DNA of 30,037 bases from an uncultured Planctomycetales bacterium (GCA_964565175.1 CAZMDZ010000001.1:1-30037), one strand, 5' to 3'. Positions 7,044 through 26,681 are shown, counted from the first letter of the stretch. Notes: generated by a model from the letters alone, not told the origin. Program-made: numbers and translations.

Positions 7044-7044
7044 C

Positions 7045-8378: not shown

Positions 8379-8659
8379 CGAATTTCCTCCGTTTTTGAAA
8401 TCTCGGTCTCGGAGCGATCGCGTTCGAAGTAGCGCATGATGGCCACCGTGCTAACGAAGTTGACCAACGCGTAAAGCAACGCGATGTCGACGTAACTATT
8501 CCAGCCCAACGCATGACCACCAACTGCAATCAATAACACAGTGTTGGTGCCGAACATATTCGTTGCCAGCATCCGGTCGTATGCAGTGGGTCCGCCGAAG
8601 GAGCGGAGCAAGGCCAACGCCATCGACATAAAAATCGCCAGCAACGCTGCGAGGAACAT
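8375..8659 (-). CDS. mrpF: Mrp antiporter subunit F
   Basis: GPTAYDRMLA and YVDIALLYALVNFVST. ATG at 8659 lies 2 nt after the mrpE stop. Confidence 0.9.
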   Translation of the reverse strand: MFLAALLAIFMSMALALLRSFGGPTAYDRMLATNMFGTNTVLLIAVGGHALGWNSYVDIALLYALVNFVSTVAIMRYFERDRSETEISKTEEIR

Positions 8660-9201: not shown

Positions 9202-11838
9202 CTATCGAGCGTAAGCGCGCCAAGCCTGGTCGAGCACGACTGGGTCCATGGCGCCGGGGAGAATGATGAACCGATAACGCAGTCGCAACGGTTCACCCTT
9301 GTTTAAATCATAGCGCTTGCCCGCTTGCGGGAAAGTGGGCTGAAACCACGGCAATTCGGGGTAAGTGACGACGTCGGCGGGGTGCTCGGGGTTGCTGGGG
9401 TGCTCAAGGATGGCCAGCGTGGTCAATTGCGTGCCGCCCTGCCAGACACCACTTGCCGCCGACCACGCAGGTTGGCGAGAGTTTGAAAGTTGCAAATCCT
9501 TGACCGGGGCCAAGCGCACGTTCAAGCCGCCGTACTTGTCCTGACCTCGGCGGGCGATGCTGACGCCATCCTCTAGCGCCTTGAAGCTGAGATCCAAGTC
9601 AACCGTCTTGCCGTACAAGCCGTCGCCGAGCAGCAACGTGACTTCCGCCGTTTCGCGGACGATGGGGGTTTTGTTCTCCCACATCCATTGATTGACCGCT
9701 TTGATGCCAACACGATCACCGCGCCGCACCGACATCGGTCTGCCGAGCGGCTTGGAAAATACCTGCTGCAGCGCGTGCAAATCCCCGATTTGTTCACCGT
9801 ACTTCACTTCGGGCCACGCCCAATAGATCCCGCGATGGTGCGGGTGATCGTGGCTCCAATCCAGGGTCAGGTCTTCGCCGTCTAAGCCGCTGAGCGGGTG
9901 GATGTACCCACTGCGCGGCACCGCGTACTTGTGATTCCCCGGAGCAACTTGATCCAAGTACCCGGTTGGCAGCGCCACTTGCTCACCGAGGTAAGTGAAC
10001 ACCGGCGTCGGGTAGAGATCGAAGCGATACGCGCCCCCTTCACTGCTGACGCCATGCACTCCGGCGTTGTAGAAGCTAGTCGCAGGCCGCATTTTGAAAG
10101 TCCAGGCATGCTGGCAAGGTAGATCATTGATGCCGATCGCAGAAGTGTCGACGGTCAGCATGCCATCATTCCACGTCCACGGCAGCTCGCGATCCAAGCC
10201 AAGCATGCGCACCGCACTCCCCTTACCGGGCTCAGGCGTGTGAAGCAGCAGTTGATCGCCCGGCCAATCCATGGTGATGGCGTAAAGGTTGCCATGGTTT
10301 CGGGTGTAAGCAACCGTTTGCCACTGCGAGCGGTAGCGCACCTTCAATCCATTTTCATTCCCTAGCTTGGTGGTAAAGAGCGAATCGCTTGGGATGACGT
10401 GCTTCAATCCATCTTCATGCGCCCAATGCAAACGAGCGACGGCTTGATGGGTGGTTTCTTTGAACTCGACGCGAATCGGCAGGCGCTCGCCTGCGGTCAT
10501 GTAGCGAATGCCTGGCTCTTCGCTGGTGGCAACGGGTTGGCCTTCGATCCACAACGTGGCGGAGTCGTCGGCTTCGAGCTCGAACAAGTAGGCGCCGTCG
10601 GCTGGGGAATCGAGAAAGCCAGTCCACTCGGCGGTGAAATGATCGGGCTCAATTCGATCGGCCGGTGAGTTGCGCACCCAATCAAAATCGATGTTGGCGT
10701 CGACGCGCTCCACATCCAAATGGATCCACTCTCCTAGACGCTTGGTGGGAGTGGCTCCATAAATCGCTTCGTTGTTGACCTCAATCCATGCACCAAGTTG
10801 GCGCAATCGTTCTTGCTGCAGCAGTGGAATTTGCCCATCCGCGCCCGGCCCGACGTTGAGCAGCATGCCGCCGCCGTGACTGACGGCGCGGGCGAAATAG
10901 TGAATCAATTGATCCGGTCGCAGGTAGGCGTCGAGTTTTTCATTGCGATTCAGGCCAAAACTCCGCCCCAGACCGCGGCACTCCGCCCATGGCCGATCGC
11001 CCGGGGGCGCTCCAGCTGAATACTCAGGGGTGCGGAATCCGACCTTGGATCCACCGCCCCAGCGATCGTTCACCGCAAGGTCATCGGGACAGCCAGATTC
11101 GGTGTAAAGCCAGTTCAAGAGTTCTGCACTTTTCCAAGTGCTGGCCGGGTGATCCCATTCGCCATCCGAAAACAGCACCGCCGGTTTGTAACGAGACATG
11201 ACGTCCTTGAATTGCGGAATCATGTGCTCGGCCACGTAACGATCGACGTCGTTCTTGGGTCGGTCGTTGGCCCAAGAGTATATCGGGTGATTCCACTCCG
11301 GCAGCGAGTAATACAAACCCATGCGCAAGCCGGCTGCGCGTACCGCGTTGGTCAAATCGCCAACCAAGTCACGTTTCGGCCCGACCTCCATCGAGTTCCA
11401 AGGGAAGCCGCGCGATTCGGACGCGTGACTGCTCGGCCACAAGGCAAAGCCGTCATGGTGCTTGGAAGTCAGCACGACATATTGCGCCCCAGATGCGCGA
11501 AAGAGCTCGGCCCATTCCGTCGGCTCGAACAACTCAGCCTTGAAATGCGGCGCCAAATCTTCATAGGTGAAGTCTTCACCGTAGACTCGCTTCAAATAAT
11601 CAATCCGCGGCTGATCGCCGGACTGCAAACCGCGCAAATACCACTCGGCGTACTGCTCCTTGCCACTCCACGACGGCACCGAGTACAAGCCCCAGTGAAT
11701 GAAAATGCCCAACTTGGCATCGCTGAACCATTGCGGGAACGGCCGGTCGGCCAGTCCCTCCCAGGTTGGAGTTTCTTGGGATGCTACTGGGTTTGCAAGC
11801 ACCAGAACGGCGAGTACGCTAGACACGGACCACTTCAT
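9202..11838 (-). CDS. GH29 alpha-L-fucosidase with PA14-type insertion and C-terminal DUF6807 (PF14100 'PmoA'-named) domain
   Basis: Sec signal, WFSDAKLGIFIHWGLYSVP, YVVLTSKHHDGFALW, LFSDGEW and LLNVGPGADGQIP (GH29). IDFDW..FTAEWTGFL..ADDSATLWI (PA14, ~10330-10730). YIHPL..DHPHHRGIYWAW..YGGLNVR (DUF6807, ~9202-10080). Confidence 0.88.
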   Translation of the reverse strand: MKWSVSSVLAVLVLANPVASQETPTWEGLADRPFPQWFSDAKLGIFIHWGLYSVPSWSGKEQYAEWYLRGLQSGDQPRIDYLKRVYGEDFTYEDLAPHFKAELFEPTEWAELFRASGAQYVVLTSKHHDGFALWPSSHASESRGFPWNSMEVGPKRDLVGDLTNAVRAAGLRMGLYYSLPEWNHPIYSWANDRPKNDVDRYVAEHMIPQFKDVMSRYKPAVLFSDGEWDHPASTWKSAELLNWLYTESGCPDDLAVNDRWGGGSKVGFRTPEYSAGAPPGDRPWAECRGLGRSFGLNRNEKLDAYLRPDQLIHYFARAVSHGGGMLLNVGPGADGQIPLLQQERLRQLGAWIEVNNEAIYGATPTKRLGEWIHLDVERVDANIDFDWVRNSPADRIEPDHFTAEWTGFLDSPADGAYLFELEADDSATLWIEGQPVATSEEPGIRYMTAGERLPIRVEFKETTHQAVARLHWAHEDGLKHVIPSDSLFTTKLGNENGLKVRYRSQWQTVAYTRNHGNLYAITMDWPGDQLLLHTPEPGKGSAVRMLGLDRELPWTWNDGMLTVDTSAIGINDLPCQHAWTFKMRPATSFYNAGVHGVSSEGGAYRFDLYPTPVFTYLGEQVALPTGYLDQVAPGNHKYAVPRSGYIHPLSGLDGEDLTLDWSHDHPHHRGIYWAWPEVKYGEQIGDLHALQQVFSKPLGRPMSVRRGDRVGIKAVNQWMWENKTPIVRETAEVTLLLGDGLYGKTVDLDLSFKALEDGVSIARRGQDKYGGLNVRLAPVKDLQLSNSRQPAWSAASGVWQGGTQLTTLAILEHPSNPEHPADVVTYPELPWFQPTFPQAGKRYDLNKGEPLRLRYRFIILPGAMDPVVLDQAWRAYAR

Positions 11839-11844: not shown

Positions 11845-12839
11845 ATGCTATCGCCGCCCCCACCGACCGACACGATTCCGCGTTGGCGACGTCGGCTTGC
11901 CAAACGACAAGTAGCCGACATCCTCATTTTCGTGTCATGGCTGAGCTTGGCGGTTTTTGGTTTACTGACCGAGGTGTCGATATGGGGTGCCACAGTCCTG
12001 CTTGTGCTTGGTTTAACAATCTTTTTGACGCTGCGGGCCAATGAGCACCAATGGAAGGAATTGAATGCGCGCGGAATGAATTTTCCTTCCCGCGTACTTT
12101 GCTCAACCGGCTGGCTTACTACTCACCCATGGCCTTCATGGTCAGCTATTACTTTTTTCATTCCATGGGAGTCAGCCCGCTGGCCTTTGCCACGCTGTTG
12201 ATTGCAGTCTTGATTCTGCGCACCTATCTCTACCCCATAATCCTCACCCCTGCGCTCACTCGCCATCCAGACAAGGAAACCCAACTTGCGGAGATTGCAG
12301 GCGACCTGATGCAGCGAGCGGAAACAATGCGCTGCCCGGTGATGGTGGCGGATCGCTTTTACGACGTCGATGACAAAGACGAAGCTGAAAACAACGAGCC
12401 CGACTTAAATGCGTTTGCCTGCGGTTTTCGCAAATCTCGCCGGGTGGTGATCTATGCAGACTTAATGGATCATTATTCAGGCCATGCCGTGCGTGGCGTG
12501 CTGGCCCACGAGCTTGCTCATATTCATCATCATCACACGGTGAAAGCGCTGATCCTGAATACACCGCCGTTTGCCCTCTTGCTATTTTTGCTGAGATCCG
12601 GGGATTCGCTAGAGCTCGTTTACTTCGCCATCGGAACACTAGTGTTGCTAGCCTTTATGCGCAAAGTCTCGCGCGTGCATGAATTCCAAGCAGATCGCAC
12701 CGCCGCTGATTGGGTTGGGCCGGAAGTGATGCATGAGTTGATCGACAACTTTGGCACCGAGCCCGACGTCGGCCGGGCAGATCGTTTGATGCGCACGCAT
12801 CCGCTTCATCAGCAGCGCAAGGACGCACTTTCCAATTGA
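11845..12839 (+). pseudogene. Membrane M48 (HtpX/Ste24-like) zinc metallopeptidase, split by a -1 frameshift at ~12089-12091
   Basis: The 12051-12839 ORF has GVLAHELAH and SRVHEFQADR. A two-TM N-terminus is encoded from ATG 11845 in another frame (tail of the 11149-12201 ORF). One extra C in the CCC at 12089-12091 would give ...MNFPSPRTLLNRL..., about 331 aa. Confidence 0.7.
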
Positions 12840-12893: not shown

Positions 12894-14777
12894 TCACGGC
12901 ATCAGCGTCCATTTCCATGTCACCACCCGCAGCACGCCGTCGACGGTGCCAGAAACTTTGGCGGTCAGCTGGTCGTGCTCGCGGAAGTATTCGATGTGAG
13001 TGGGGAAGTCGTGATCCTCGTTGACGAAAACGGCACGGCGGGGTTCGAGCGTTTGTAGGACGAACTCGGCGGGCTCTTGGTTGGAAGGAAAGGCGCGGTA
13101 GACCACCAAGCCATCGCGCTCGACGATTTCCAAATGCTCCAAACTAAAACCGCCTTCGGCGTTGCAGTCGCGGTGGGTGCCGACCATGACGCCATTGCGC
13201 GGCGCGAACCAGCCTTCTTCTTGGACACTCTTTTTGTGTCTGGAACTCCAGTGACCAGCCAGCCAACGCAACTGATTGATTTTTGATCCCCCATTGACCG
13301 TTGGCATTTTGGCGCCGATTTCCTTTTGCCAGTCATGGAGTTTAGCCAGCAACTCGTTGCGCTTTTCCTTGTGTTGAGTTGCCAAATCAAATTGTTCGCT
13401 AGCGTCCACATCCAAACGGAATAGTTCAACCTTGCCGCTATCAAACCACTCAATCAACTTCCAATCGCCGTCGCGCACCGCCGCGCCGGGTTGGCCTCCT
13501 TGATTTCCGTAATGAGGGTAGTGCCAAAAAACCGGCCCGCGCTGGTACTCCTCATGCCCCAACAAAGGACCGACAAAGTTGACGCCATCCACATGCTGCG
13601 CCGGAGTGCTTTGGATTCCAACCAAACTCAAAATGGTTGGATAAAAATCGGTGCTGGTCACCACCGCACTGCAGACCGAAGGCTGCTTCACCGAGGGATC
13701 CACCGAGGTCATCCCTTCCGGCAAATGCACAATCAATGGCTCGCGGATTCCGCCTTCATACAACCAACCTTTACCCGCACGCAGCGGCAAGTTGCTGGTT
13801 GGACTGCCTTCCGAAGTGGATAAGCCGCCGTTGTCCGAGGTGAAAATCACAATGGTGTTTTTGTCCGCGCCGGTTTCGGCCAGCGCATCCATCACCGTAC
13901 CGACCGCCATGTCCATGGCTTCGACCATGCCGGCATAAACCGCGTGGTTCTGCACCATGCGCACCCGACGCTCCCCTTCTTTACCCCACGCCTCGGCCGG
14001 TCCGGCCTCGCGCTTTTTCAAATACTTCTGCTTCAAATCCTCACGCGCAATCAACGGCGTGTGCACCGAGTAGAACGACAAGAATGTAAAAAACGGTTGG
14101 CCTTGATTTGCGCGAATAAACGCCGCCGTTTCATTCGCCAAACGCTGCGGCAAATGCTCGCCGTCGGGGCCGTCTTGCAAACGCGGGTTGCCATACGGAG
14201 AGAAGTATTTTTTGCCGCCATAAGGACCGCCACGAGTGATGCCGCCTATGTTGACGTCAAAACCATGGTCTTCGGGCCAAAATCCTTCGGGGCCTAAGTG
14301 CCATTTGCCAGCGAAAAAAGTTGCGTAGCCATTGGCCTTCAACGCTTCGGCCAACGTCACTTCTTCATGCGCCATCCGATCGGTGTATTCCGCGGGCAGC
14401 AGCGCGGTTTTGCGCTTCCACTTCTCCGGTTGGTTGAATCGACCTTCGTTGATGTAGTCCGTAATGCCAGTCCGTGCTGGATACTTGCCGGTCATGATGC
14501 TCGACCGCGTTGGGCTGCACACCGGGCACGAAGCATAAGCATTGGTGAAGCGTGTCCCGCCATCGGCTAACCGCTGAATGTTGGGCGTGTCATAAAACGT
14601 ATTCGGATTGTTGGGCGACACATCCATATAGCCGAGGTCATCCACCAAAATGAAAACTACATTCGGCGGCGCCAACCCCTGCTCTTGAGCCAAAGAACTC
14701 GCTCCCACCAAGAAACATGCTGCGATTGCCGCAAAGGCCGTCGCCCAGCCCGAAGGTCTTTCCGCGCGATGGATCAT
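12894..14777 (-). CDS. Formylglycine-dependent (Cys-type) sulfatase fused to a C-terminal DUF6265-like domain
   Basis: Signal peptide, FILVDDLG, CSPTRSSIMTG and FAGKWHLG. The last ~130 aa (LRWLAGHW..EEGW..AVFVNEDHDFPTHIEY) resemble DUF6265. Confidence 0.88.
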   Translation of the reverse strand: MIHRAERPSGWATAFAAIAACFLVGASSLAQEQGLAPPNVVFILVDDLGYMDVSPNNPNTFYDTPNIQRLADGGTRFTNAYASCPVCSPTRSSIMTGKYPARTGITDYINEGRFNQPEKWKRKTALLPAEYTDRMAHEEVTLAEALKANGYATFFAGKWHLGPEGFWPEDHGFDVNIGGITRGGPYGGKKYFSPYGNPRLQDGPDGEHLPQRLANETAAFIRANQGQPFFTFLSFYSVHTPLIAREDLKQKYLKKREAGPAEAWGKEGERRVRMVQNHAVYAGMVEAMDMAVGTVMDALAETGADKNTIVIFTSDNGGLSTSEGSPTSNLPLRAGKGWLYEGGIREPLIVHLPEGMTSVDPSVKQPSVCSAVVTSTDFYPTILSLVGIQSTPAQHVDGVNFVGPLLGHEEYQRGPVFWHYPHYGNQGGQPGAAVRDGDWKLIEWFDSGKVELFRLDVDASEQFDLATQHKEKRNELLAKLHDWQKEIGAKMPTVNGGSKINQLRWLAGHWSSRHKKSVQEEGWFAPRNGVMVGTHRDCNAEGGFSLEHLEIVERDGLVVYRAFPSNQEPAEFVLQTLEPRRAVFVNEDHDFPTHIEYFREHDQLTAKVSGTVDGVLRVVTWKWTLMP

Positions 14778-16438
14778 TTCTCGCCCTCCGCCGAGTCGTC
14801 TTGGTATTGCGCCTGCAATTCGCCCAACTGTTGGGCCATCGAAACGGCAAGGTCGCGGTATTCAGGGTCTAAGTACAAATTGTTCAATTCATCCGGATCA
14901 TTCTTCAAATCGAACAACTCCCACTCACCCACCTGGTAATAACGAATTAGCTTGTAGCGGTCAGTGCGAATGCCGTAATGCCGTTGCACCTTGTGTACAT
15001 CGGGGAAGCCGTAGTAGTGGTAATAAATCGAATCGCGCCACGATTCCTTTGCCAACGACAACTCCAAAATCTCGGCATCGTCTAAGTTGAAGTCGCCGCT
15101 GTTTTGCAAGAGCGGCAGCAAGGACATGCCTTGAAAATCATCCGGGACCTCCGCTCCTGCTGCCTGCAAAAATGTCGGTGCATAATCCAAGTTTTGCACC
15201 AAGTTCTTATTCACTGTTCCCGGCGGCGTTTTCCCTGGCCATTTCACCACTAGCGGCATCTTCAACGACTCTTCATACATCCAACGCTTGTCGTACCAGC
15301 CATGATCACCCAGAAAAAACCCCTGGTCCGAAGAATAGACCACGATCGTATTTTCAGCCAAACCCGCGTCTTCTAAATACTTCACAATTTTGCCGACGCT
15401 ATCGTCGACGGCTTTTGAAGTGCGCAAATAGTTCTTCATGTAGCGCTGATACTTCCAACGCACCAAATCCTTGCCGGTCAGATTCGCGTCGTAAAAAGCT
15501 TTGTTCTTCTCGGCATAACCCGCGCGCCATTTTTCCAGCTGCTCAGGCGTCATCTTCTTCAAATTGCGAAACCCAGATTTGTCGGTGGCAATTCCCGAAA
15601 TGGTGTCTTCCCGCGGATCCAAAAATAAATCATAAGCCGAATTCATGTGCCGATCGATTTCCATCTCTTGCCCAGCTGCCGGGCTGGCGTTGTCGGCATA
15701 ATCATCAAACAAAGTATCTGGCACAGGCAACTCGACGTCGTCCCACAAATTCAAATAACGCAGCGGCGGCATCCAGTTGCGATGCGGGCCCTTGTGTTGC
15801 GCCATCAGCAAAAACGGCTTGCCATCTTTACGCTGCTGCTCCATCCAACCAATCGCCATGTCGGTGATCAAGTCAGTGCAATAACCCTGCACCCGACGAC
15901 GCCCTTCCGGCGAAATAAAATCCGGGTTGTAGTAGTCGCCCTGGCCCGGCAGGATGTCCCAGTAATCAAACCCCTGCGGATCGCTATGCAAATGCCATTT
16001 GCCAATCATCGCCGTTTGATAGCCCGCTTTCTGCAACAACTTCGGAAAGGTAACCTGGTCCCCATCAAATCGATTGCCGTTGGCCATAAATCCATTTTTA
16101 TGACTGTGCTTGCCGCTCAAAATCACCGCCCGGCTAGGCCCGCAAATCGAATTGGTGCAGAAGCTGTTACGGAACAACATGCCTTGCGACGCAAGTTGAT
16201 CAATGTTCGGTGTCGGATTGAGTTCGGCGTATCGGGTTCCATAAGCGCCGATCGCATGCGGCGCGTGATCGTCGCTAAAAATGAAAACGATGTTGGGTTG
16301 CTTTCTGGCGCTGGCGTCGGCGGCTTGAGCCACGGCCGGCGCGGCGGCGGTGTGTGCGGCGGCCGGAGCGACGGCGGCTTGGGCGACGACCGGTGCGGCG
16401 AGCAACAGCGATGGAATTTGGAAGTGGAGCAGCTTCAT
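14774..16438 (-). CDS. Cys-type sulfatase, N-acetylglucosamine-6-sulfatase-like
   Basis: FIFSDDH, CGPSRAVILSG, MIGKWHL, YQRYMKNYLR, SSDQGFFLGDHGWYDKRWMYEES. Ala-rich spacer after the signal peptide. The subfamily call is by resemblance. Confidence 0.9.
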   Translation of the reverse strand: MKLLHFQIPSLLLAAPVVAQAAVAPAAAHTAAAPAVAQAADASARKQPNIVFIFSDDHAPHAIGAYGTRYAELNPTPNIDQLASQGMLFRNSFCTNSICGPSRAVILSGKHSHKNGFMANGNRFDGDQVTFPKLLQKAGYQTAMIGKWHLHSDPQGFDYWDILPGQGDYYNPDFISPEGRRRVQGYCTDLITDMAIGWMEQQRKDGKPFLLMAQHKGPHRNWMPPLRYLNLWDDVELPVPDTLFDDYADNASPAAGQEMEIDRHMNSAYDLFLDPREDTISGIATDKSGFRNLKKMTPEQLEKWRAGYAEKNKAFYDANLTGKDLVRWKYQRYMKNYLRTSKAVDDSVGKIVKYLEDAGLAENTIVVYSSDQGFFLGDHGWYDKRWMYEESLKMPLVVKWPGKTPPGTVNKNLVQNLDYAPTFLQAAGAEVPDDFQGMSLLPLLQNSGDFNLDDAEILELSLAKESWRDSIYYHYYGFPDVHKVQRHYGIRTDRYKLIRYYQVGEWELFDLKNDPDELNNLYLDPEYRDLAVSMAQQLGELQAQYQDDSAEGEK

Positions 16439-16480
16439 CTTCGGTAGGGTTCGCCCAAGTTAGCAGGTATGCTCGGAGAG

Positions 16481-18631
16481 ATGCGCTTTGCCCCCCTCCT
16501 TTTGTTGGCGGCTCTATTTTCCGCCGCGCTATCCACTCCCACCCGCGCGCAGGATGCCAAGCCAAATATCGTTTTCATCATGGCGGACCAAATGCGCGCC
16601 GACTTCCTCGGGTGCGCGGGGAATGAAGCGGTGCACAGCCCCAACCTGGATCGTTTCGCCAGCGAAGGTGCGCATTTCCGCCGGGCGTATGCCTCCACCC
16701 CTTCTTGCACCCCAGCACGCGCCGCCATTTTGACCGGCCAGTCGCCCTGGAGCCACGGCATGCTCGGCTATTCCCAAGTGGCCGAGCGCTACCCGATTGA
16801 GCTGCCCCGGCTGATGAACGAGGCGGGCTACTACACCTACGCCATCGGCAAGCAACATTTCCACCCCCAGCGAAACACCCACGGCTATCAGGGAATGGAA
16901 TTAGACGAATGCGGACGGCGTCGGGATCCGGGGTTTCTTTCGGATTACCACCGCTGGTTCGATCAAGTGGCCGGCCGCCAAGATCCTGACGCAACCGGCT
17001 TGGGCTGGAACGATTACCGCGCCAAGGCTTATCGCTGGCAAGAGGAACTGCATCCGACTGCCTGGACCGGTGAACGCGCTACCGAGTTCTTGCATGAATA
17101 CGATCGCGATCAACCGTTTTTCCTGAAAGTCAGTTTCGCACGGCCTCACAGCCCTTATGACCCGCCCTCCAATTTTTTGGCGAAAGTCGACCCGAAGACG
17201 GTGCCAGCAGCGGCGGTGGGCGATTGGTCCGACGAACAATTTGGTCATTTCCATCAGCCCGAAAAGTTCTCCGCCCCACGCAACAACTTGGGCGCCGAAG
17301 TCAATCAAGCGGCACGCCGAGCCTATGCAGCGAACATTGCTTTTATCGATGAGCAAATTGGCAACATACTTCAGGTTTTGGAAGCACGAGGCATGCTGAA
17401 GAACACTTTGCTGATTTTCACTTCCGATCACGGCGACATGCTCGGCGACCATCACCTTTGGCGCAAAACTTATGCCTACGAAGGCTCGGCAGGAGTTCCC
17501 ATGTTGATGTACTGGGGCGACGACGTCCTGCGTGCGCCGCGCGGGCAAGTGCGCCATGAATTGGTTGAGCTTCGCGATTTACTTCCCACTTTCCTCGACG
17601 CGGCGGGCGCACCGGTGCCGGACGCAGTCGATGGTTTGTCGATGCTGCATCCAGTCAAAGGCCTGCGCACGGCGTGGCGCCGATGGTTGGATTTGGAGCA
17701 CTCGACCTGTTATTGGCCGGGGAATAACTGGACCGCGCTGACCGATTCGCAATGGAAGTACATCTTTCATGCCTTTGACGGCAGCGAGCAATTGTTCGAC
17801 CTGAAGGCAGATCCGCAGGAGTTAGTCGACTTGTCCGCGAGTCAAGATCATCAGCAAGTTCTCAAGCAATGGCGCGGACGCATGGCCGAGCACTTGGCGC
17901 CGCGCGGTGATGCATGGGTGGCCGATGGCGCCCCAGCGATACGCAAGAAGGGTCAAGCCCGAGGGGCGAATTATCCCGCCTCGGAAGAGAAGAAGAGCAA
18001 GCAAGAACCAGCGATGGCATCGCCTCAATCGGTCAGCGGAATTTATCCACACTTGGCATTCTTCAATGACGAAAACGAATGCGGAACCGGGGCACTGGTG
18101 CCGTGGGCAGATCGATTATGGGCAATCACCTATGCACCGCACGCGCCGCGGGGGTCGTCGGACAAGTTGTATGAGATCACGCCCGAGTTGGACTTGATCG
18201 TGCGCCCGGAATCGATCGGCGGCACCCCAGCCAATCGCATGATTCACCAGGAGTCGCAGCAGTTGTTTCTTGGACCTTACGTGATTGATAAGGATCGCAA
18301 CGTACGCACCATTCCCTATGAAAAAATGTTTGGCCGCCACACGGGCAACGCGCGCCACCTCACTGACCCGGCCAATAAAATTTACTACGCAACCATGGAA
18401 GAGGGTTTGTACGAGGTCGATGTCCATACCCTCGACGTCAACGTGTTGTACGCAGACAACCACGGCGACAAGGCGATGGTCCACTCCGCCGCTCCGCAAT
18501 CTGAGTTGCCCGGTTACCACGGCAAGGGTCTGTACTCTGGCCAGGGACGGGTGGTTTATGCCAACAATGGCGAAGTTGGAAAAACCGTGTTTACCGATCC
18601 TTCGACGCCGTCGGGATCGTTGGCGGAATAG
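16481..18631 (+). CDS. Cys-type sulfatase fused in frame to the N-terminal part of a large uncharacterised domain; ends at a premature TAG
   Basis: GGAGAG RBS before ATG 16481, signal peptide, FIMADQMR, CTPARAAILTG, TSDHGDMLGDH. The sulfatase domain ends at ~17980. After a linker a different domain starts at SVSGIYPHLAFFN (~18030). Confidence 0.85.
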   Translation: MRFAPLLLLAALFSAALSTPTRAQDAKPNIVFIMADQMRADFLGCAGNEAVHSPNLDRFASEGAHFRRAYASTPSCTPARAAILTGQSPWSHGMLGYSQVAERYPIELPRLMNEAGYYTYAIGKQHFHPQRNTHGYQGMELDECGRRRDPGFLSDYHRWFDQVAGRQDPDATGLGWNDYRAKAYRWQEELHPTAWTGERATEFLHEYDRDQPFFLKVSFARPHSPYDPPSNFLAKVDPKTVPAAAVGDWSDEQFGHFHQPEKFSAPRNNLGAEVNQAARRAYAANIAFIDEQIGNILQVLEARGMLKNTLLIFTSDHGDMLGDHHLWRKTYAYEGSAGVPMLMYWGDDVLRAPRGQVRHELVELRDLLPTFLDAAGAPVPDAVDGLSMLHPVKGLRTAWRRWLDLEHSTCYWPGNNWTALTDSQWKYIFHAFDGSEQLFDLKADPQELVDLSASQDHQQVLKQWRGRMAEHLAPRGDAWVADGAPAIRKKGQARGANYPASEEKKSKQEPAMASPQSVSGIYPHLAFFNDENECGTGALVPWADRLWAITYAPHAPRGSSDKLYEITPELDLIVRPESIGGTPANRMIHQESQQLFLGPYVIDKDRNVRTIPYEKMFGRHTGNARHLTDPANKIYYATMEEGLYEVDVHTLDVNVLYADNHGDKAMVHSAAPQSELPGYHGKGLYSGQGRVVYANNGEVGKTVFTDPSTPSGSLAE

Positions 18632-19950
18632 GTAGATGGTGAATGGAATGTGGTGCTGCGCAATCAATTTACCGAGGTGACTGGTCCAGCTGGAATCTAC
18701 GGTAGTGAAGATCCGGCCAACGACCCGATTTGGAGTATCGGTTGGGATCACAAGTCTTTGATTTTGATGCTGCTCGACAAAGGCGAGTGGCACCGCTTCC
18801 GCCTACCAAAAGCTAGCCATAGTTACGACGGCGCCCACGGCTGGAACACCGAATGGCCGCGAATTCGTGACATTGGGGAAGAGGATTTGCTGATGACCAT
18901 GCACGGCATGATGTGGCGTTTCCCGCGCACATTTTCTGCGGCCAACACAGCTGGCATTACACCGCGATCGACTTACCTGAAAGTGATCGGAGATTTTTGT
19001 CGCTGGCAGAATCGGGTGGTGTTCGGCTGCGACGACACCGCACGCAGTGAGTTTCAGAATAAGCGCAAAGCCAAAGGCGAAATTGCCGCCCCGCGATCGC
19101 AATCAAATTTATGGTTTGTCGAACCAGAGCAGTTGGACCACCTGGGTCCGGTGTTTGCGCGCGGCGCGCTGTGGTTGAACGAAGAGGTTCAAGCTGGGCA
19201 AGTTTCCGACCCAATGTTGGTCCATGGTTTTGATTCGCAATCCATGCACTTGGTCACCGACAAGCCGAGCAAAATCTACATAGAAGCGGACCTAACAGGG
19301 CGCGGCGACTGGCGCGTGGTCGACATCTTGAAGGCCGACGGCTATCAATGGCACAACCTTGCCCTGAGCCCAACCGTGCAGTGGGTTCGCTTGCGCAGTA
19401 AAGAAAAGTTGGACCGGGCAACCGCATGGTTCCAGCTGCAAGAACGGCGAAGCGACCTGTTCCCCATCCTTTCTTTTTACGACAAACCAGCGCCTCCCCC
19501 CGAAGCGTTCCTGGGCATGCCATTGGTTTTGGATCGGGAAGCTGTCGGCGGGGTCATTCGTGCGCGAGGCGAAAAAGAAGGCACGCTGCATTTTGCGGCG
19601 CGAGTCGCCTTTGCCGCGAAGTTGCCACCGAGCGCGATTTATTTCACTTCGGCGGAATTTTTTATGAACTACCCGCCGAAAATGCCGGCGGCTTTTCCAA
19701 GATCAAGCCGATCAGCGCCCACCACTTGCAGATCAGTGATTTCTGTAGCTACCGAGGCATGCTCGTCATGTCGGGCGTCAGCTTGGAGCGGGCAAGCGAA
19801 GCCGATAGCTCGCACATCATTCTCAGCGACGACGGCCAAGCCGCGCTCTGGGTGGGCGCAGTCGATGACTTATGGGAGCTTGGGAAACCACGTGGCGAAA
19901 TGGGGCTCTTCCCCTTTGGGAGAGTGAAAGCAAATGTGCCATCCGAGCCT
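18632..19950 (+). pseudogene. Continuation of the uncharacterised domain: in frame after the TAG, frameshifted at ~19600, truncated at ~19950
   Basis: Reads SLAE*VDGEWNVVLRNQFTEV in one frame. Protein-like sequence switches at ~19598-19605 from the 18650 frame (..TLHFAA) to the 19426 frame (SRLCREVATERDLF..GAVDDLWELGKPRG). Confidence 0.75.
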
Positions 19951-22082
19951 GGCTTGAGCAACGGGTCGCCGGAGCCAGCAAACCGGCATGTGAGCTTGAC
20001 TTGGTATTCGCCGGTGGGGACGAGTAGGTAAGTCGAACTGCGGAAGACTTCGCCCGGCTGCAACGATGTGCCAAGGTCCAGTTCGGTACCGTTGATCTCG
20101 AGCACGATTTCCTCGGCGGCAATTTTGTCACCGCATTGGAAGATGAACTCGACCGGCTGCGGGGCAAAGGGATTGCTGACTGTGAATTCAGTGGAGGTCG
20201 GCATGCCAGGCTGTTCGCGGCGCGTGTGCTTGCCTTTGAAGGAGTGGACTTCGCTTAAGCTCCAACCTTCGTTGGTTTCGCGCAGGGTGAATTCACGCTT
20301 GATGTCTTGCAACGCTGGCAGCATTTCGGGCGGGAAGGCGTTGGCCATGCGCGCCGCTTCCCAAATGCGAATTTTCTTGAGGATGGCGTCGCCGTTGGCA
20401 TTGGCGGCGATGACGTCGGCGCCGGTGACGAAAGCAAAGCCAGCGTTGAAACCTGCGGACCGTGCCATCAACCATTCCGCGTCTTCCAGCGAAGTTTGGC
20501 CGGTCATTTTGAACCAACCAAGCATGCGCGGCATCAGGTTGCGCTCGAAGTAATGCTGGTTGAGCAGACGATAATGCGTTTGGCTTTCGCGAAAACCTGC
20601 GTACCAAGGCTCGCCCCAATTCATCCGCGTGTAGATATGCCAGAAGTAATGGCCCGGATTGCTGGCATCGTTGATGACGGCGCCGCGCAGTTCAGGTTTG
20701 AGCGCGTCCATCCACCATTGCGCCATCAATGTGCGGCCGTATTGCCCCAAGCCAGTCGACCACATGCCTTCCAAACCATCAAACGAGATCTGCCGCAAGC
20801 CGGTTTGGTTGAACAAGTCGGCCAAAGTTTCGGCGACGCGTTTGCTTAACGAATAATCGGTGAGGAAGGTGCGGTAAGCATGGTCAATCAGCTTGTGCAC
20901 CTCAGCGCCAGTTTCGTGTGCGGCAGCCGTCGTGCCGAATGCGCCGCGTTTGCAACCCGTCAGTCGATCACCATCGACCGTTTGGTATTGAATGAGTTCG
21001 TCCCCAATCCGCGCCGTGCGCAACGCTCCTTTGTTTTCAAACCAACCGCCGTCGGCGACCACCAATTCATCCGCACTGGCGCCGACCGACTCCATCAACT
21101 CGGTCGTGCCGACTACCGCCAAACCAGGATCCGGAACCGGCGTCACCAGTGGATCGTTGGTGGTAATGAAATTGCTCAAAGTGTGCAAACCCACATCGAC
21201 GCCTTCGGCCCGCGCCTTGTCCACACACGCTTTCATCCCCTTCCAACCATTGGGGAATTGCTGCGGGTTGAGTTCGAATTTACCCCAGGTGCGGAACGGT
21301 CCACCGTGATAAAGGTAGCGCAACCCGGCCTTTTTGGTCAGTGCAATGACGTCGTCGATATTGTCTTCGCTGAAACTGATAATCAAATACGCCGCCGTCG
21401 CTGAACGCGAAGTTTTGCCCCATTCGCCATCAATGATCGGATGCGGCAGTCCTTCTGCCACTTCAATTTTGCCGATGGTTTGCAGGGTTTGTTCCACCGG
21501 ACACCCAAACAACGCAATCGCCGATCCAATCAGTCCACCATCCTCTACCGCTGGCGCCACAAATCGTTTGTGCCCCCAGTTTTCAATCACCCGCGTCTTC
21601 GACCGGTCGCGCACATAAGCCTGAATGGTGCTGCCAAAATCGGTCTTCAATGCCGCGTCTCCGCGATACAACAACTTCGTCTCCTTGCCGACGTCGACGT
21701 AATCACTCTGCGCAAAAATGTTGTAGTTGGGCATCTGATCGTGATCATGCTTCGCCGCTCCGCCCATCGTTTTTGGGTTGAGCGCCTGCAAGCCGATCGC
21801 GAATTTCTCGCCGCGCACCACGCCAATCGTTTCGCCGATGGTTTTTTGAATGGTGGTCGGGTAAGGCCCCCACATCAACAACTCGGCTTCGGCGGGTCCA
21901 CTCGGACTGACGCTGACCACCTCCAACCGCAGATGACTCTTCTTCTGCTCAACCTGCAGCTCCACGTCGGCCGCTGCGAACTTCAGCGTTGCTCGGTCTT
22001 CGTGCCAAGTGACCGCAGTCGGCAACTGATACTCACCCTCTACTTTCAATCGAGCCATCGGCGCTGGCTGCCCATTCGGCAA
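19749..22082 (-). CDS. Large uncharacterised protein, putative TIM-barrel glycoside hydrolase; 5' end and probably 3' end damaged
   Basis: 777 codons rich in Trp/Gly/aromatic motifs (WGPYPT, YLYHGGPFRTWG, VGLHTLSNF, ISFDGLEG, RMNWGEPWY, PRMLGWF). TTG start with no RBS or signal peptide. The last ~65 aa look like the shadow frame of the opposite gene. Confidence 0.7.
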   Translation of the reverse strand: MPNGQPAPMARLKVEGEYQLPTAVTWHEDRATLKFAAADVELQVEQKKSHLRLEVVSVSPSGPAEAELLMWGPYPTTIQKTIGETIGVVRGEKFAIGLQALNPKTMGGAAKHDHDQMPNYNIFAQSDYVDVGKETKLLYRGDAALKTDFGSTIQAYVRDRSKTRVIENWGHKRFVAPAVEDGGLIGSAIALFGCPVEQTLQTIGKIEVAEGLPHPIIDGEWGKTSRSATAAYLIISFSEDNIDDVIALTKKAGLRYLYHGGPFRTWGKFELNPQQFPNGWKGMKACVDKARAEGVDVGLHTLSNFITTNDPLVTPVPDPGLAVVGTTELMESVGASADELVVADGGWFENKGALRTARIGDELIQYQTVDGDRLTGCKRGAFGTTAAAHETGAEVHKLIDHAYRTFLTDYSLSKRVAETLADLFNQTGLRQISFDGLEGMWSTGLGQYGRTLMAQWWMDALKPELRGAVINDASNPGHYFWHIYTRMNWGEPWYAGFRESQTHYRLLNQHYFERNLMPRMLGWFKMTGQTSLEDAEWLMARSAGFNAGFAFVTGADVIAANANGDAILKKIRIWEAARMANAFPPEMLPALQDIKREFTLRETNEGWSLSEVHSFKGKHTRREQPGMPTSTEFTVSNPFAPQPVEFIFQCGDKIAAEEIVLEINGTELDLGTSLQPGEVFRSSTYLLVPTGEYQVKLTCRFAGSGDPLLKPGSDGTFAFTLPKGKSPISPRGFPSSHKSSTAPTQSAAWPSSLRMMCELSASLARSKLTPDMTSMPR

Positions 22083-22119
22083 GTAGTTCCGTCCGTCTCG
22101 GAGGTGGAGGTTGGTGGGA

Positions 22120-22175
22120 GTCCGGGAGACCAGGTGTCCGGGGGTCCGAGCGTTCGAGCGTTCGAGCGTTCCACT
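22120..22175. repeat. Degenerate 8-bp tandem repeat, 7 units
   Basis: gtccggga/gaccaggt/gtccgggg/gtccgagc/gttcgagc/gttcgagc/gttccact read directly from the sequence. Confidence 0.75.
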
Positions 22176-23657: not shown

Positions 23658-26600
23658 ATGCCGGTGATTTCCTCCATCATTCTGTCACTCGCCATTTGCT
23701 CCCCCATGGCTCCGCAAGACCGAGCCCAGGCCCCAGACTTCGATCGCGAAGTGCGGCCGATCTTGGCGGACAAGTGCTTCGCCTGCCACGGTCCCGACAA
23801 AGATGGACGCAAAGGCAAGCTGCGGCTGGACAAACGCGATCGCATCTTGGGCATTTCCGGTGGCGACGCGGTTGTCGTGCCCGGCGACCGGGAAGACAGC
23901 GAGTTGTGGTACCGCATCACCACCGACTACAGCGACGACTTGATGCCGCCCACCGATCACGGCAAGTCGCTGACCGCCGCTGAGATTGAGATTCTTGGCA
24001 AGTGGATCGACGACGGCGCACCATGGGCGGAGCACTGGGCATTTGTTTCACCAGTGAAGCCGAAACTGCCGGAAGTCGCCAACCGCGAATGGATCCGCGA
24101 TGAGGTGGATACTTTTGTCTTGGCCAACCTCGAGAAGAATGGATTGCAGCCCAATCACCACGCAGAAAAGGGCAAATGGCTACGTCGGGCGAGTTTGGCG
24201 CTGACCGGCTTGCCGCCGACCGAGATGGAGGTGCGCGCATTCCTCGGCGACTGGTCGGCGGATGCTTACGACAAGGTGGTCGATCGGTTGTTTGCCTCGC
24301 CGGCTTACGGAGAACACATGGCGTCGGCATGGCTGGATGGTGCTCGCTACGCCGACACCAATGGCTATCAAAATGATTTTCACCGGGCGCAGTGGCCGTG
24401 GCGCGACTGGGTGGTGCAGGCTTACAACAACAACTTGCCCTTTGATCAATTCGCCACCTGGCAGTTGGCCGGGGACTTATTGCCTAACGCGAGCAATGAG
24501 CAAATTTTGGCGACCGGCTTTGGCCGCAATCATCGCACCGTAACGGAGGCGGGATCGCTGGATGAAGAGTGGCGCGTCGAGAACGTGGTCGACCGAGTGG
24601 AGACGACGGCGACGGTGTTCATGGGGTTGACGATGGGTTGCGCGCGCTGTCACGATCATCGCTACGATCCGATTTCGCAAAAGGAGTTTTATTCGTTCTA
24701 TGGGTTTTTTAATTCACAGGATGAAAAAGGTGTTTATCAAGAAACACGCGGCAACGCAGGCCCGATGGTCAGGGTGCCGTCGGCATCGGACAAAGCGCGG
24801 TTGGCAGAATTGCGCCGGGCGAAAAAAGCGGCGCGAATGAGAAATGAGGAAGCAATTGCCAAGCGCGGAGAAGCCTTTGAAAATTGGCAGGATATGTTAG
24901 AAAAGCAATCGCTTTCGAATAACGACTCATGGACCGACATACTGCGGTTTAATCAAAACGAAGACCCGCGACCCAATTTCGGCGGCGAAGTCTTTTCACC
25001 GGAGCACGATCAATCGTTCACCATTTCGGCTTGGGTCCGACCGCGTTCCGACGGCACCGTGATCGGCAAAATGGATGCGGAGGCTGCGTATCGGGGAGTG
25101 GATTTGACCTTGATCGAAAACCGCAAGATTTCGGTTCACCTCATTCATGACTGGCCGAACAATGCCATCAAAGTTGTTTCGAATGAGGCTCTGGACGATG
25201 GAGTATGGAATCACGTCGGCGCGAGTTATGACGGCAGTGGCAAAGCGTCGGGGGTGCAGTTGTTTTTGAATGGCCGGGCGATTGATGCGCGAGTGGCAGC
25301 CGACAACTTGGACGGCAGCATTCTGACGGACACACCGCTGCGCTTGGGCCAGCGTTCGACTCGCGAGCATCTTCGCGGCGACCTTCACACGGCGCGCTTT
25401 GAAATGGCAACCTCGGATGAAGCCAAAGTACGAATGCACGTCAACGCCGACGCTCATGGTTTGTGGAGACGGTTGGGTTCGAAAGTAATCTCTGCGGACA
25501 GCAACAACGATGGGGGTTCCAAGGCTTCGGCTAGCGAACTCAGTGGTCAAGACCTAAGCGAAGTTTTTGCTTCATGCTTTCATCAAGAAAGTCGTCAAGC
25601 GCGACTGGAAATGCAACGGCAGAACAAAGCTATGGCGGAGTTTGAAAAGAACATTCCGTCCGTGATGGTGATGAAAGATCGCGCCGAGCCGCGGCCGACT
25701 TACTTGCTGAATCGCGGCCTGTACGATCAACCGGTTGAAGAGGAAGAAATTCAAACCGGAGTTCCAGATGTGCTGCCAGGGTGGCAGCAGTCTTACCCGC
25801 GAAACCGCTTGGGCCTGGCCCAATGGATGGTTTCCGCGGAAAATCCACTGACCTCGCGAGTGGCAGTGAACCGCATCTGGCAACAGTTGTTTGGCACAGG
25901 CTTAGTCAAGACTTCTGAGAACTTCGGCATTCAAGGATCGCGGCCGAGTCATCCGCAACTGTTGGATTGGCTGGCGTTGGAATTTGTTGAATCCGGCTGG
26001 GATGTACAAGCTTTGCAAAGACGCTTAGTGCTGTCGGCCACTTTCCGTCAAAGTTCGTCGGCGACGGCCGAAAGCTATGCCAGTGACCCGGGCAACCTTA
26101 AACTTGCCCGTGGACCTCGTTATCGATTGAGCGCCGAACAGGTACGTGATCAAGCGTTGATGGCGAGTGGATTGTTAGTGCAGAAGTTAGGCGGTCCGCC
26201 CACGCGTCCCCATCAGCCGCCTGGTTTATGGACCGAATTGGCGGGCGGTGCTGGCCAAGGCCCTTATGTGCAAGATACCGACGATGGCTTGTGGCGGCGC
26301 AGCCTGTACACCCACCGCAAACGCTCGGTCCCCCACCCGACGCTTACCACTTTCGATGCACCCAGTTTTGAGGTGTGCTTGGTTCGACGTCCACGCACCA
26401 ATACACCACTGCAGGCGTTGGCAACCTTGAATGATCCTACTTATGTGGAGGCGGCACGGCGCCTTGGTGAACGCATGATGGATTTGGATCGCTCCAACGA
26501 ACAACGCTTGGCGTGGGCATTTTCGCTTTTGACCTGCCGCCCGCCTACGGCGAAAGAGCAGACCATTTTGAAGGATGCGCTCTATGCAGAATTGCGCTAC

Positions 26601-26681
26601 ACCCCCAAAGACCCTGCTGCCGCGTGGACTGCAGTTGCGGCAATCCTTCTTAACTTGGACGAGGTGTTGAACTGTGACTAA
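23658..26681 (+). CDS. Planctomycete cytochrome c / DUF1549 / LamG-like / PSD1 (DUF1553) protein
   Basis: [21 protein letters not shown] (CxxCH, 23775-23789), [24 protein letters not shown] (24639-24653), LamG-like [38 protein letters not shown]. Confidence 0.92.

What the first reader, a model, noticed from the sequence alone, without database searches (positions are those of the whole stretch)
16481..19950. Hidden giant gene: sulfatase fused to a large uncharacterised Trp-rich domain
Three ORF-track fragments (16469-18631, 18650-19927, 19426-20031) read as one gene of more than 1100 aa: sulfatase, linker, then a domain with SGIYPHLA, ECGTGALVPWADRLW, GYHGKGLYSGQG, HGWNTEWPRIR and CREVATERDLF. 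I recall this domain as a conserved stand-alone hypothetical protein in Bacteroidota/PVC glycan loci (recollection, not a search). Its short beta-strand pattern suggests beta-propellers. Fusion to a sulfatase makes it a strong candidate for a new glycoside hydrolase or lyase family acting on sulfated glycans.
Basis: partly seen in the sequence, partly recalled or inferred. Interest (0 to 1): 0.75.

Follow-up and report, generated by a model that had tools for sequence, protein, structure and literature searches.

The report
Broken sulfatase–propeller fusion gene
The three fragments are the decayed remains of one ~1,330-residue gene that in related planctomycetes joins a sugar-desulfating enzyme to a large, very widespread, unstudied beta-propeller module; the module family deserves study, but this copy is dead.

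Summary
The three ORFs exist and derive from one gene, but that gene is broken here. Intact orthologues of 1330-1339 aa occur in related Planctomycetota with the same gene order.

Against them the window copy has three lesions:
- a Trp-to-TAG nonsense codon at 18629-18631;
- a net 256-nt deletion with frameshift at 19601-19606, removing about 83 aa;
- a ~0.29-kb 3' deletion at 19953-19965, removing 69-72 aa and clipping the convergent neighbour gene.

The N-terminal part is an intact S1 formylglycine sulfatase. It is closest to BT1918 (S1_46, GlcNAc-3-O-sulfatase), and all five BT1918 specificity residues are conserved.

The C-terminal module belongs to a very large family:
- more than 7500 clusters at 90% identity, about 1957 at 50%;
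- mostly stand-alone secreted ~800-aa proteins of Verrucomicrobiota, Planctomycetota and allied phyla;
- no Pfam, NCBIfam or PDB sequence match.

AlphaFold gives a confident all-beta model: a 7-bladed propeller plus beta-sandwiches. It has no close solved analogue.

The module is fused to two different sulfatase subfamilies, and once to a FecR anti-sigma domain. A functional link to sulfatases is therefore well supported. Catalytic activity (hydrolase or lyase) remains an inference.

The parts
16481..16558 (+). Start codon and predicted signal peptide (MRFAPLLLLAALFSAALSTPTRAQDA) of the fusion gene
   Evidence: Aligns with the N-terminus of intact orthologue P0121. It is the start used in the source's own gene call, P0391. 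The signal-peptide character is read from the sequence.
16562..17980 (+). S1 formylglycine sulfatase domain with no lesion. It carries the Cys-type FGly motif CTPAR at 16706-16720 and is S1_46-like.
   Evidence: Pfam Sulfatase 1.2e-54 and SGSH_C 1.4e-15. Phmmer to PDB 7OZ8 gives E 2.7e-164 over the full length. 7OZ8 is BT1918, an S1_46 3S-GlcNAc sulfatase (PMC10154620).
17981..18028 (+). Low-complexity linker between the sulfatase and the beta-propeller module
   Evidence: This stretch is poorly conserved and of variable length between the window, P0001, P0121 and L005.
18029..18628 (+). Propeller module, segment A (roughly blades 1-4)
   Evidence: tblastn with P0121, L005 and P0001 at 73-80% identity. 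Blade assignment comes from the DSSP of the AlphaFold model of homologue P0033.
18629..18631 (+). Lesion 1: in-frame TAG where the family has an invariant Trp (LAEW; W218 in P0033 numbering)
   Evidence: TAG also ends other ORFs in the window, including three with their own domain or homology support, so it is an ordinary stop here.
18632..19603 (+). Propeller module, segment B (blades 5-7 and the first beta-sandwich), in the same frame as segment A
   Evidence: Colinear alignment to P0121 aa 729-1052 and L005 up to aa 1059.
19601..19606 (+). Lesion 2: junction of a net 256-nt deletion. About 83 codons are lost (P0121 aa 1053-1135) and the frame shifts from +2 to +1.
   Evidence: L001 and L005 both have 261 nt between the LH[FL]AA and RLCREVA codons, where the window has 5 nt.
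19607..19965 (+). Propeller module, segment C, in frame +1 (RLCREVATERDLF ... PSEPGLSNG)
   Evidence: tblastn to P0121 aa 1136-1261 at 70% identity and to L005 aa 1143-1265. The segment has 9 window-specific substitutions against 2 in P0121, including the family-invariant W700F.
19953..19965 (.). Lesion 3: junction of a ~0.29-kb deletion that removed the 3' ends of both convergent genes. Across these 13 nt, homology to both genes overlaps.
   Evidence: blastn of L001 against the window: L001 nt ~2835-3125 are absent. The fusion gene loses 69-72 codons. The neighbour loses its last 21 codons and its stop.
19966..20031 (+). Non-homologous read-through tail of the pseudogene up to a chance TAA. 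It is the antisense of the neighbour gene.
   Evidence: There is no similarity to the family C-terminus. The same DNA on the minus strand is 80% identical to the L001 neighbour gene.
19953..22160 (-). Convergent syntenic partner gene of family 'Y' (GH36/GH101-like barrel). It is damaged at both ends in the window: the start and signal peptide are missing, and the native C-terminus is replaced by 66 antisense-derived residues running to 19749.
   Evidence: Gene order is the same in L001, L004, L005 and the P0121 contig.

Best explanation
**Shown**
- Window 16481-19965 (+) is a pseudogene of a conserved planctomycete gene.
- The intact gene encodes a secreted ~1330-aa two-module protein.
- The N-terminal module is a Cys-type formylglycine (S1) sulfatase of the BT1918/S1_46 type.
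- A ~30-aa linker joins it to an ~800-aa all-beta module: a seven-bladed propeller, a beta-sandwich, about four more blade-like sheets and a second beta-sandwich.
- The second half of the module is an ancient duplicate of part of the first half.
- The module belongs to a very large, strongly conserved and unannotated family, whose members are usually stand-alone secreted proteins.
- In this window the module has been inactivated by a Trp-to-TAG mutation, a 256-nt frameshifting deletion and a ~0.29-kb 3' deletion.
- The sulfatase part has no lesion. At most it could be made as a 716-aa protein carrying four orphan propeller blades.

**Inferred**
- In intact orthologues the two modules act on the same sulfated glycan outside the cytoplasm.
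- The syntenic GH36/GH101-like partner gene, the neighbouring GH29 fucosidase and the other sulfatases are part of the same pathway.
- My preferred reading (about 0.4) is that the propeller module is catalytic, a hydrolase or lyase for an anionic glycan. Candidate active-site residues are the family-invariant carboxylates and arginines R93, D259, E294, R297 and D645 (P0033 numbering).
- The joint damage to the fusion gene and its partner suggests that this two-gene unit is being lost in this lineage.
For: **One gene, now broken**
- Colinear tblastn to intact proteins: P0121 (1330 aa, 80% identity over aa 1-1052), L005 (1337 aa) and L004 (1339 aa).
- Flanking gene order is identical in the P0121 contig: Mrp, GH29-PA14-DUF6807, M48, sulfatase-DUF6265, sulfatase, fusion, 776-aa gene.
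- The three lesions are mapped.
- TAG also ends other ORFs in the window, three of them with independent domain or homology support.
- Window-specific substitutions are in excess only in the propeller part: 36 against 20 for P0121 (p = 0.044). The sulfatase part shows 10 against 9. The excess includes the invariant W700F.

**Sulfatase identity**
- Pfam match.
- 7OZ8/BT1918 at E 2.7e-164, about 57% identity.
- CTPAR motif present.
- The BT1918 residues Y94, R143, W173/N174, R327 and Y408 are all conserved.

**Module family**
- 7542 hits at 90% clustering and 1957 representatives at 50% clustering.
- No Pfam hit (hmmscan reporting cut-off E = 10), no NCBIfam hit (cut-off E = 1), and no PDB sequence or profile hit.
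- AlphaFold pLDDT 92.2, pTM 0.91.
- Foldseek finds only generic propellers, with TM no higher than 0.29 for full-length matches.

**Link to sulfatases**
- Fusions occur to two S1 subfamilies that are only 25-29% identical to each other: P0121 versus P0122, P0131, P0150 and P0158.
- An Akkermansiaceae fusion also exists.
- Sulfatase genes lie adjacent in L009 and nearby in L022.

**Catalysis hint**
- Only 13 positions are invariant across 49 representatives down to 37% identity. Five are charged: R93, D259, E294, R297 and D645.
Against: - No read-level or independent-assembly confirmation of the lesions exists. The window's protein is found on a single 44-kb contig, and the junction 40-mer is absent from the metagenome collection.
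- The rate acceleration is modest, so inactivation would have to be recent.
- Nothing shows that the module is catalytic. There is no fold-level match to a known hydrolase or lyase active site.
- One family member replaces the sensor domain of a FecR anti-sigma factor in a sigma/anti-sigma operon.
- Stand-alone members have no conserved glycan-locus neighbourhood.
- I could not inspect the model coordinates, so I do not know whether the invariant residues cluster.
Confidence: 0.8

Rival explanations
1. The propeller module is not an enzyme but a glycan-recognition module. Fused to a sulfatase it would target or position the substrate, as a very large CBM does. Fused to FecR it would be the extracytoplasmic sensor of an ECF sigma/anti-sigma switch. 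As a stand-alone secreted protein it would be a binding protein.
For: - P0129 is a FecR-module fusion encoded directly downstream of an ECF sigma factor.
- P0033 lies next to an ECF sigma / FecR-LamG pair.
- The periplasmic heparin-sensing domain of BT4663 (4A2L/4A2M) recurs among the best Foldseek hits.
- No known catalytic signature or enzyme fold match was found.
- Other fusion partners are adhesion or anchoring elements: TSP3, F5/8 type C, PEP-CTERM and the T9SS sorting domain.
Against: - Conservation is unusually high for a binding module: 55-65% identity across phyla and 182 invariant columns among 52 sequences.
- Invariant carboxylate and arginine residues persist down to 37% identity.
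- TM-scores to BT4663 are only 0.17-0.29.
- Most members are stand-alone proteins with signal peptides and are not attached to any signalling or catalytic partner.
Confidence: 0.3
2. The gene is intact in the organism. The stop codon, the two deletions and the damaged ends of the neighbour are errors of metagenome assembly or sequencing.
For: - The sequence is known from a single 44-kb contig with no second assembly.
- A further probable frameshift in the nearby M48 peptidase gene could indicate an error-prone assembly.
- Most family-invariant residues are still present.
Against: - The lesions are of three different kinds: a base substitution and two deletions of 256 and ~290 nt. None is the homopolymer indel typical of sequencing error.
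- No repeats were seen that would cause an assembly collapse.
- The 3' deletion joins the two genes across 13 nt of shared homology.
- The propeller part, but not the sulfatase part, shows an excess of lineage-specific substitutions, including the family-invariant W700F.
- About a dozen other genes in the window are full length.
Confidence: 0.1
3. The TAG is read through or recoded, or the gene is split into separately translated functional pieces, so the module is still made.
For: ORFs 1 and 2 are in the same frame, and a GTG at 18650 could restart translation.
Against: - TAG also ends other ORFs in the window, three of them with independent domain or homology support.
- All homologues have Trp at this position.
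- Even with read-through, the 83-aa deletion with frameshift and the missing 69-72 C-terminal residues remove conserved strands and nine further invariant positions.
Confidence: 0.02

Closest known systems
BT1918 of Bacteroides thetaiotaomicron (SulfAtlas S1_46, N-acetylglucosamine-3-O-sulfatase, PDB 7OZ8)
   Same: The N-terminal 500 aa align end to end with it (E 2.7e-164, about 57% identity). The formylglycine motif is present. All five residues that bind 3S-GlcNAc in BT1918 are conserved (Y94, R143, N174, R327, Y408), as is W173.
   Different: The window enzyme is Cys-type (CTPAR) where BT1918 is Ser-type. It comes from an environmental planctomycete. In intact orthologues it carries an ~800-aa C-terminal module that BT1918 and most subfamily members (~500 aa) lack. 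Substrate specificity was not tested.
Bifunctional glycosidase-sulfatase proteins such as the GH78 rhamnosidase / S1 sulfatase of the ulvan pathway (PDB 6HR5, named 'Alpha-L-rhamnosidase/sulfatase (GH78)')
   Same: A precedent for one polypeptide that combines an S1 sulfatase with a second module acting on the same sulfated polysaccharide. The sulfatase of the second fusion type (P0122) is related to 6HR5 (E 5.9e-52).
   Different: The partner module there is a recognised CAZy family with a different fold (my own knowledge). Here the partner has no family assignment, and its activity is unknown.
Periplasmic double beta-propeller sensor domain of the hybrid two-component system BT4663 (PDB 4A2L/4A2M)
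   Same: An extracytoplasmic multi-propeller protein with an appended beta-sandwich that recognises a sulfated glycan. It is repeatedly among the top Foldseek hits (E 6.5e-9 to 2.8e-7). One family member occupies the sensor position of an anti-sigma factor.
   Different: TM-scores are only 0.17-0.29 and sequence identity 9-10%. No sequence-level relationship was found: the Pfam scan returned no family at all. The family is mostly stand-alone or sulfatase-fused, not part of histidine kinases.
Beta-propeller carbohydrate-active enzymes (GH43, GH181 and GH183 among the hits; from my own knowledge also lyase families PL22, PL24 and PL25)
   Same: A propeller scaffold, secretion, and a glycan-degradation context. 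Weak Foldseek hits to GH183 EndoMA1, a GH43 enzyme and a GH181 sialidase.
   Different: These hits are no better than those to WD40 or LRP propellers (TM 0.18-0.29). No Pfam, NCBIfam or PDB sequence match exists. The architecture, with about 11 blade-like sheets and two sandwiches, differs.

Membership tests
S1 formylglycine-dependent sulfatases (Pfam PF00884) | Significant match to the sulfatase domain model over its full length | tested here: met
   PF00884 at E 1.2e-54, covering profile positions 1-301 of 301. PF16347 (SGSH_C) at 1.4e-15.
S1 formylglycine-dependent sulfatases (Pfam PF00884) | C/S-x-P/A-x-R formylglycine motif | tested here: met
   C-T-P-A-R at 16706-16720, aligned to S-T-P-A-R of BT1918.
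SulfAtlas subfamily S1_46 (BT1918-like) | Closest characterised relative is an S1_46 member, with the 0-subsite residues conserved | tested here: met
   7OZ8 scores 551 bits; the next PDB sulfatase scores 240 bits. The motifs GYxxVA, GRR, GWND, WRKTY and HSTCY are conserved (residues as defined in bioRxiv 10.1101/2021.07.23.453482).
SulfAtlas subfamily S1_46 (BT1918-like) | Assignment by the SulfAtlas subfamily HMM or phylogeny | not testable with these tools
Beta-propeller fold | Repeated four-stranded antiparallel sheets arranged around an axis | tested here: met
   AlphaFold model of homologue P0033: pLDDT 92.2, pTM 0.91, all-beta, with seven consecutive four-strand units in residues 34-384. 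All 448 Foldseek hits with E <= 0.001 that were listed are propeller proteins. Tested on a homologue, not on the broken window copy.
Any described glycoside hydrolase or polysaccharide lyase family | Sequence or fold match to a family member with conserved catalytic residues | tested here: not met
   No Pfam hit (hmmscan reporting cut-off E = 10), no NCBIfam hit (cut-off E = 1), and no PDB hit by phmmer or profile. Foldseek hits to GH43, GH181 and GH183 have TM no higher than 0.29. CAZy's own models were not available.
Arylsulfotransferase (ASST), the name UniRef gives to homologue P0061 | Match to the ASST Pfam models | tested here: not met
   P0061 gives no Pfam family at all when hmmscan reports hits up to E = 10.
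HTCS-type periplasmic propeller sensors (BT4663-like) | Structural superposition over both propellers and the Y_Y_Y domain, plus sequence match to the Reg_prop/Y_Y_Y models | tested here: not met
   Foldseek E 6.5e-9 but TM only 0.17-0.29. The Pfam scan returned no family, so no match to those models either.
Functional (intact) gene | Uninterrupted reading frame covering the full length of orthologues | tested here: not met
   In-frame TAG, a 256-nt frameshifting deletion and a 3' truncation, relative to P0121, L004 and L005.

The most novel reading that the evidence does not exclude
The ~800-aa propeller module defines a new, very widespread family of secreted enzymes (more than 7500 sequence clusters in PVC and allied phyla). 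It would cleave or otherwise process sulfated or anionic glycans in concert with sulfatases, using the invariant D259/E294/D645 and R93/R297 set. That would make it a new glycoside hydrolase or polysaccharide lyase family with a new propeller architecture. The syntenic GH36/GH101-like partner would be a second new family from the same pathway.
Probability: 0.35. Interest if true: 0.75.

Novelty: new variant of a known kind. Interest (0 to 1): 0.5.

Why it matters
**Background.** Planctomycetota and Verrucomicrobiota degrade recalcitrant sulfated polysaccharides such as fucoidans, mucins and GAG-like polymers. They do this with hundreds of sulfatases and with many proteins of unknown function.

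**What is new here.**
- This family is one of the larger unannotated ones. It has thousands of members with 55-65% identity across phyla, and no Pfam, NCBIfam or PDB relative.
- It now has a concrete functional anchor: independent fusions to two sulfatase subfamilies. One of them has a predicted 3-O-sulfo-GlcNAc-type pocket.
- This gives a testable route to a possible new enzyme or recognition activity.
- It also identifies usable intact genes for the work: P0121 and L005 6001-10014.

**For annotation.** The three ORFs should be annotated as one pseudogene, not as three hypothetical proteins. The neighbour's long ORF ends in antisense-derived sequence.

Tried and rejected
- **Pfam, NCBIfam and PDB sequence searches** of the module, both single sequence and 52-sequence profile: no hit.
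- **Arylsulfotransferase lead** from a UniRef name: no Pfam support.
- **Whole-model Foldseek against the PDB:** only generic propeller similarity.
- **Hub metal site built from the seven His residues** invariant among close homologues: dropped, because only H181 stays conserved in representatives down to 37% identity.
- **The 800-aa unannotated gene near P0033** (L002 4454-6856) as a possible paralogue: no similarity.
- **Conserved neighbours of stand-alone members:** none was found beyond occasional sulfatases, across 14 loci compared all against all.
- **Source genome or an independent copy of the lesions:** not found. The genome scan gave relatives of at most 77% identity. The exact junction 40-mer was absent from the metagenome collection. 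The protein-guided metagenome scan gave nothing closer. The protein database holds only the window's own 716-aa call.
- **Literature searches** for a description of the family or of sulfatase-propeller fusions: nothing relevant.
- **TAG recoding:** rejected.
Full report
**1. The observation**

- The ORF list reproduces the three fragments at 16469-18631, 18650-19927 and 19426-20031 on the + strand.
- All five quoted peptide motifs are present at 18029-19644.
- The first two ORFs are in the same frame and are separated by a single TAG at 18629-18631. The third is in the +1 frame.
- Pfam finds Sulfatase (E 1.2e-54) and SGSH_C in the first ~475 residues. It finds nothing in the remaining ~700 residues.

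**2. One gene, but broken**

A stitched translation of the C-terminal region finds more than 7500 homologues. Three intact relatives cover both the sulfatase and the module in one protein:

| Relative | Length | Source |
|---|---|---|
| P0121 | 1330 aa | 26-kb metagenome contig |
| L005 6001-10014 | 1337 aa | Planctomycetota MAG NIOZ-UU23 |
| L004 5932-9951 | 1339 aa | Planctomycetales MAG |

- The P0121 contig has the same gene order as the window: Mrp antiporter, GH29-PA14-DUF6807 fucosidase, M48 peptidase, sulfatase-DUF6265, sulfatase, fusion gene, convergent ~776-aa gene.
- P0121 is 80% identical to the window over its residues 1-1052.

Against these relatives the window shows three lesions:

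| Lesion | Position | Effect |
|---|---|---|
| (i) Trp to TAG | 18629-18631 | Stop at a position that is Trp in every homologue and invariant in the 52-sequence alignment |
| (ii) Net 256-nt deletion | 19601-19606 | 261 nt in L001 and L005 against 5 nt here; removes P0121 residues 1053-1135 and shifts the frame |
| (iii) ~0.29-kb deletion | 19953-19965 | Loss of the last 69-72 residues |

- The third deletion also removed the last 21 codons and the stop of the convergent neighbour. The neighbour's ORF now runs 66 codons into the antisense of the pseudogene.
- The neighbour additionally lacks its start codon and signal peptide.
- TAG also ends other ORFs in the window, three of them with independent domain or homology support, so recoding is not an explanation.
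- I ran a relative-rate count with L005/L004 or P0001 as outgroups. The sulfatase part has 10 window-specific against 9 P0121-specific substitutions. The module has 36 against 20 (binomial p = 0.044), including the family-invariant W700F.
- This fits recent relaxation of selection on the module only.
- I could not confirm the lesions in reads or in a second assembly. I therefore keep about a 10% chance that they are artefacts.

**3. The sulfatase part**

- It has no lesion.
- It aligns end to end with PDB 7OZ8 (E 2.7e-164, about 57% identity).
- 7OZ8 is BT1918, the S1_46 N-acetylglucosamine-3-O-sulfatase (PMC10154620).
- The formylglycine motif is the Cys type (CTPAR, 16706-16720).
- The residues that the BT1918 study identified as binding the N-acetyl group and the sugar ring (Y94, R143, N174, R327, Y408) are all conserved in the alignment, as is W173.
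- Most members of this sulfatase subfamily are stand-alone ~500-aa proteins. One 69%-identical stand-alone orthologue is in L006.
- The fusion is therefore a lineage-specific elaboration.

**4. The module family**

*Size and distribution*
- Members are typically 757-898 aa and carry an N-terminal signal sequence.
- They are annotated only as hypothetical proteins.
- They come from Verrucomicrobiota, Planctomycetota, Kiritimatiellia (Tichowtungia), Omnitrophota and Latescibacterota.
- They are 53-74% identical to the window.
- An exhaustive profile search finds 1957 representatives at 50% clustering, 626 of them below E 1e-30.
- There is no Pfam match (hmmscan reporting cut-off E = 10), no NCBIfam match, and no PDB match by sequence or profile.

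*Structure*
- AlphaFold2 on homologue P0033 with a 52-sequence alignment gives pLDDT 92.2 and pTM 0.91.
- The model is all-beta:
  - seven four-stranded blades (residues ~34-384);
  - a beta-sandwich (397-490);
  - about four further blade-like sheets (516-682);
  - a second beta-sandwich (695-787).
- Residues ~576-788 are 25-30% identical to ~263-490. This is an internal duplication of 'blades plus sandwich'.
- Foldseek against the PDB returns only generic multi-propeller proteins with TM no higher than 0.29 over the full length: BT4663 sensor, PorZ, DDB1, LRPs, and GH183, GH43 and GH181 enzymes.

**5. Clues to function**

*Fusion partners among the 50% representatives*

| Partner | Members |
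|---|---|
| S1_46-like sulfatase | P0121 |
| A second S1 subfamily, 25-29% identical to the first and nearest to S1_11/S1_25 structures | P0122, P0131, P0150, P0158 |
| FecR anti-sigma domain, encoded directly after an ECF sigma factor | P0129 |
| WD40, TSP3, F5/8 type C, M14 peptidase, PEP-CTERM, T9SS sorting domain | various |

- An Akkermansiaceae MAG also carries a sulfatase-module fusion.
- Sulfatase genes lie adjacent in L009 and nearby in L022.
- Apart from that, stand-alone members have no conserved neighbourhood.
- Two independent sulfatase fusions are good evidence that the module works on sulfatase substrates.
- They do not show whether it cuts or merely binds them.

*For catalysis*
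- Conservation is very high.
- Across 49 full-length representatives down to 37% identity, only 13 positions remain invariant. Five are charged: R93, D259, E294, R297 and D645. This composition suits an active site for an anionic sugar.

*For recognition*
- The FecR fusion.
- The recurring, though weak, resemblance to the BT4663 sensor.

I put catalysis at about 0.4, recognition at about 0.3, and leave the rest undecided.

**6. The surrounding pathway**

- The convergent partner gene (family Y) is syntenic with the fusion in all four relatives.
- It also has no Pfam, NCBIfam or PDB sequence match.
- Its AlphaFold model (pLDDT 89.9) is a beta-sandwich, a (beta/alpha)8 barrel and further beta-sandwiches.
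- Its best structural matches are GH101, GH36, GH31 and GH66 glycosidases.
- Elsewhere it is fused to GH29 fucosidases or to a sulfatase.
- The window also contains a GH29 fucosidase and three more sulfatases. Together these look like a locus for a sulfated, fucose- and/or GlcNAc-containing glycan.
- Both members of the fusion/Y pair are damaged in this window, while the flanking sulfatases are full length. This suggests the pair is being lost as a unit.

**7. Comparison, novelty and verdict**

- The sulfatase half is an ordinary new member of a known subfamily.
- The combination with a large module of unknown family is a new variant of the known 'multimodular sulfatase' theme. A precedent is the GH78-sulfatase protein of PDB 6HR5, seen.
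- The module family is undescribed in every library I could search. It is a reasonable target for discovering a new activity.
P0121, L005 or L004 should be used instead.
- Interest: 0.5. The module family is large and uncharacterised with a clear experimental handle, but nothing here would overturn expectations, and the function remains inferred.

Noticed in passing
window 19749-22082 (-); relatives L005 10021-12369, L004 9954-12266, L001 3061-5385: The convergent neighbour belongs to a second large unannotated family: more than 2700 hits, ~800 aa, with no Pfam, NCBIfam or PDB sequence match. Its AlphaFold model (pLDDT 89.9) is a beta-sandwich plus a (beta/alpha)8 barrel plus beta-sandwiches. 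The best Foldseek hits are GH101, GH36, GH31 and GH66 glycosidases. Elsewhere it is fused to GH29 fucosidases or to a sulfatase. It is a candidate new glycosidase family. In the window it lacks its start and signal peptide and its native C-terminus.
   Followed up: partly
window 11866-12839 (+): The M48 peptidase ORF is 262 aa (12051-12839), against 338 aa in the syntenic relative. A membrane-helix-rich N-terminal part reads in a different frame (about 11866-12080). This suggests a frameshift near 12040-12100, which could be either another decayed gene or a sequencing error.
   Followed up: partly
window ~22150-22175: Three tandem copies of the 8-mer GAACGCTC lie in the degenerate 5' region of the neighbour gene, where relatives encode the signal peptide.
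   Followed up: no
window 9202-11838 (-) and 12894-14777 (-): Two other multi-domain glycan enzymes are present: a GH29 alpha-L-fucosidase fused to PA14, Fucosidase_C and DUF6807, and a sulfatase fused to DUF6265. The second overlaps the next sulfatase gene (14774-16438) by 4 nt.
   Followed up: no
window 1475-8529 (-) and 23658-28089 (+): The locus is flanked by an Mrp-type cation/proton antiporter operon and by a PSCyt1/PSCyt2/PSD1 (DUF1549/DUF1553) plus DUF1501 gene pair, which is typical of Planctomycetota and Verrucomicrobiota. The same pair type lies near the stand-alone homologue P0033.
   Followed up: no
protein P0404 (1156 aa; not in the window): A sulfatase 60% identical to the window's is fused to AXE1/Hydrolase_4 esterase domains. 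This hints that substrates of this sulfatase clade may also be acetylated.
   Followed up: no
L026 1461-5342: In a termite-gut metagenome contig, an ECF sigma factor gene is followed directly by a FecR-propeller-module fusion (P0129, 1108 aa). Here the module sits where the sensor domain of an anti-sigma factor normally is.
   Followed up: partly
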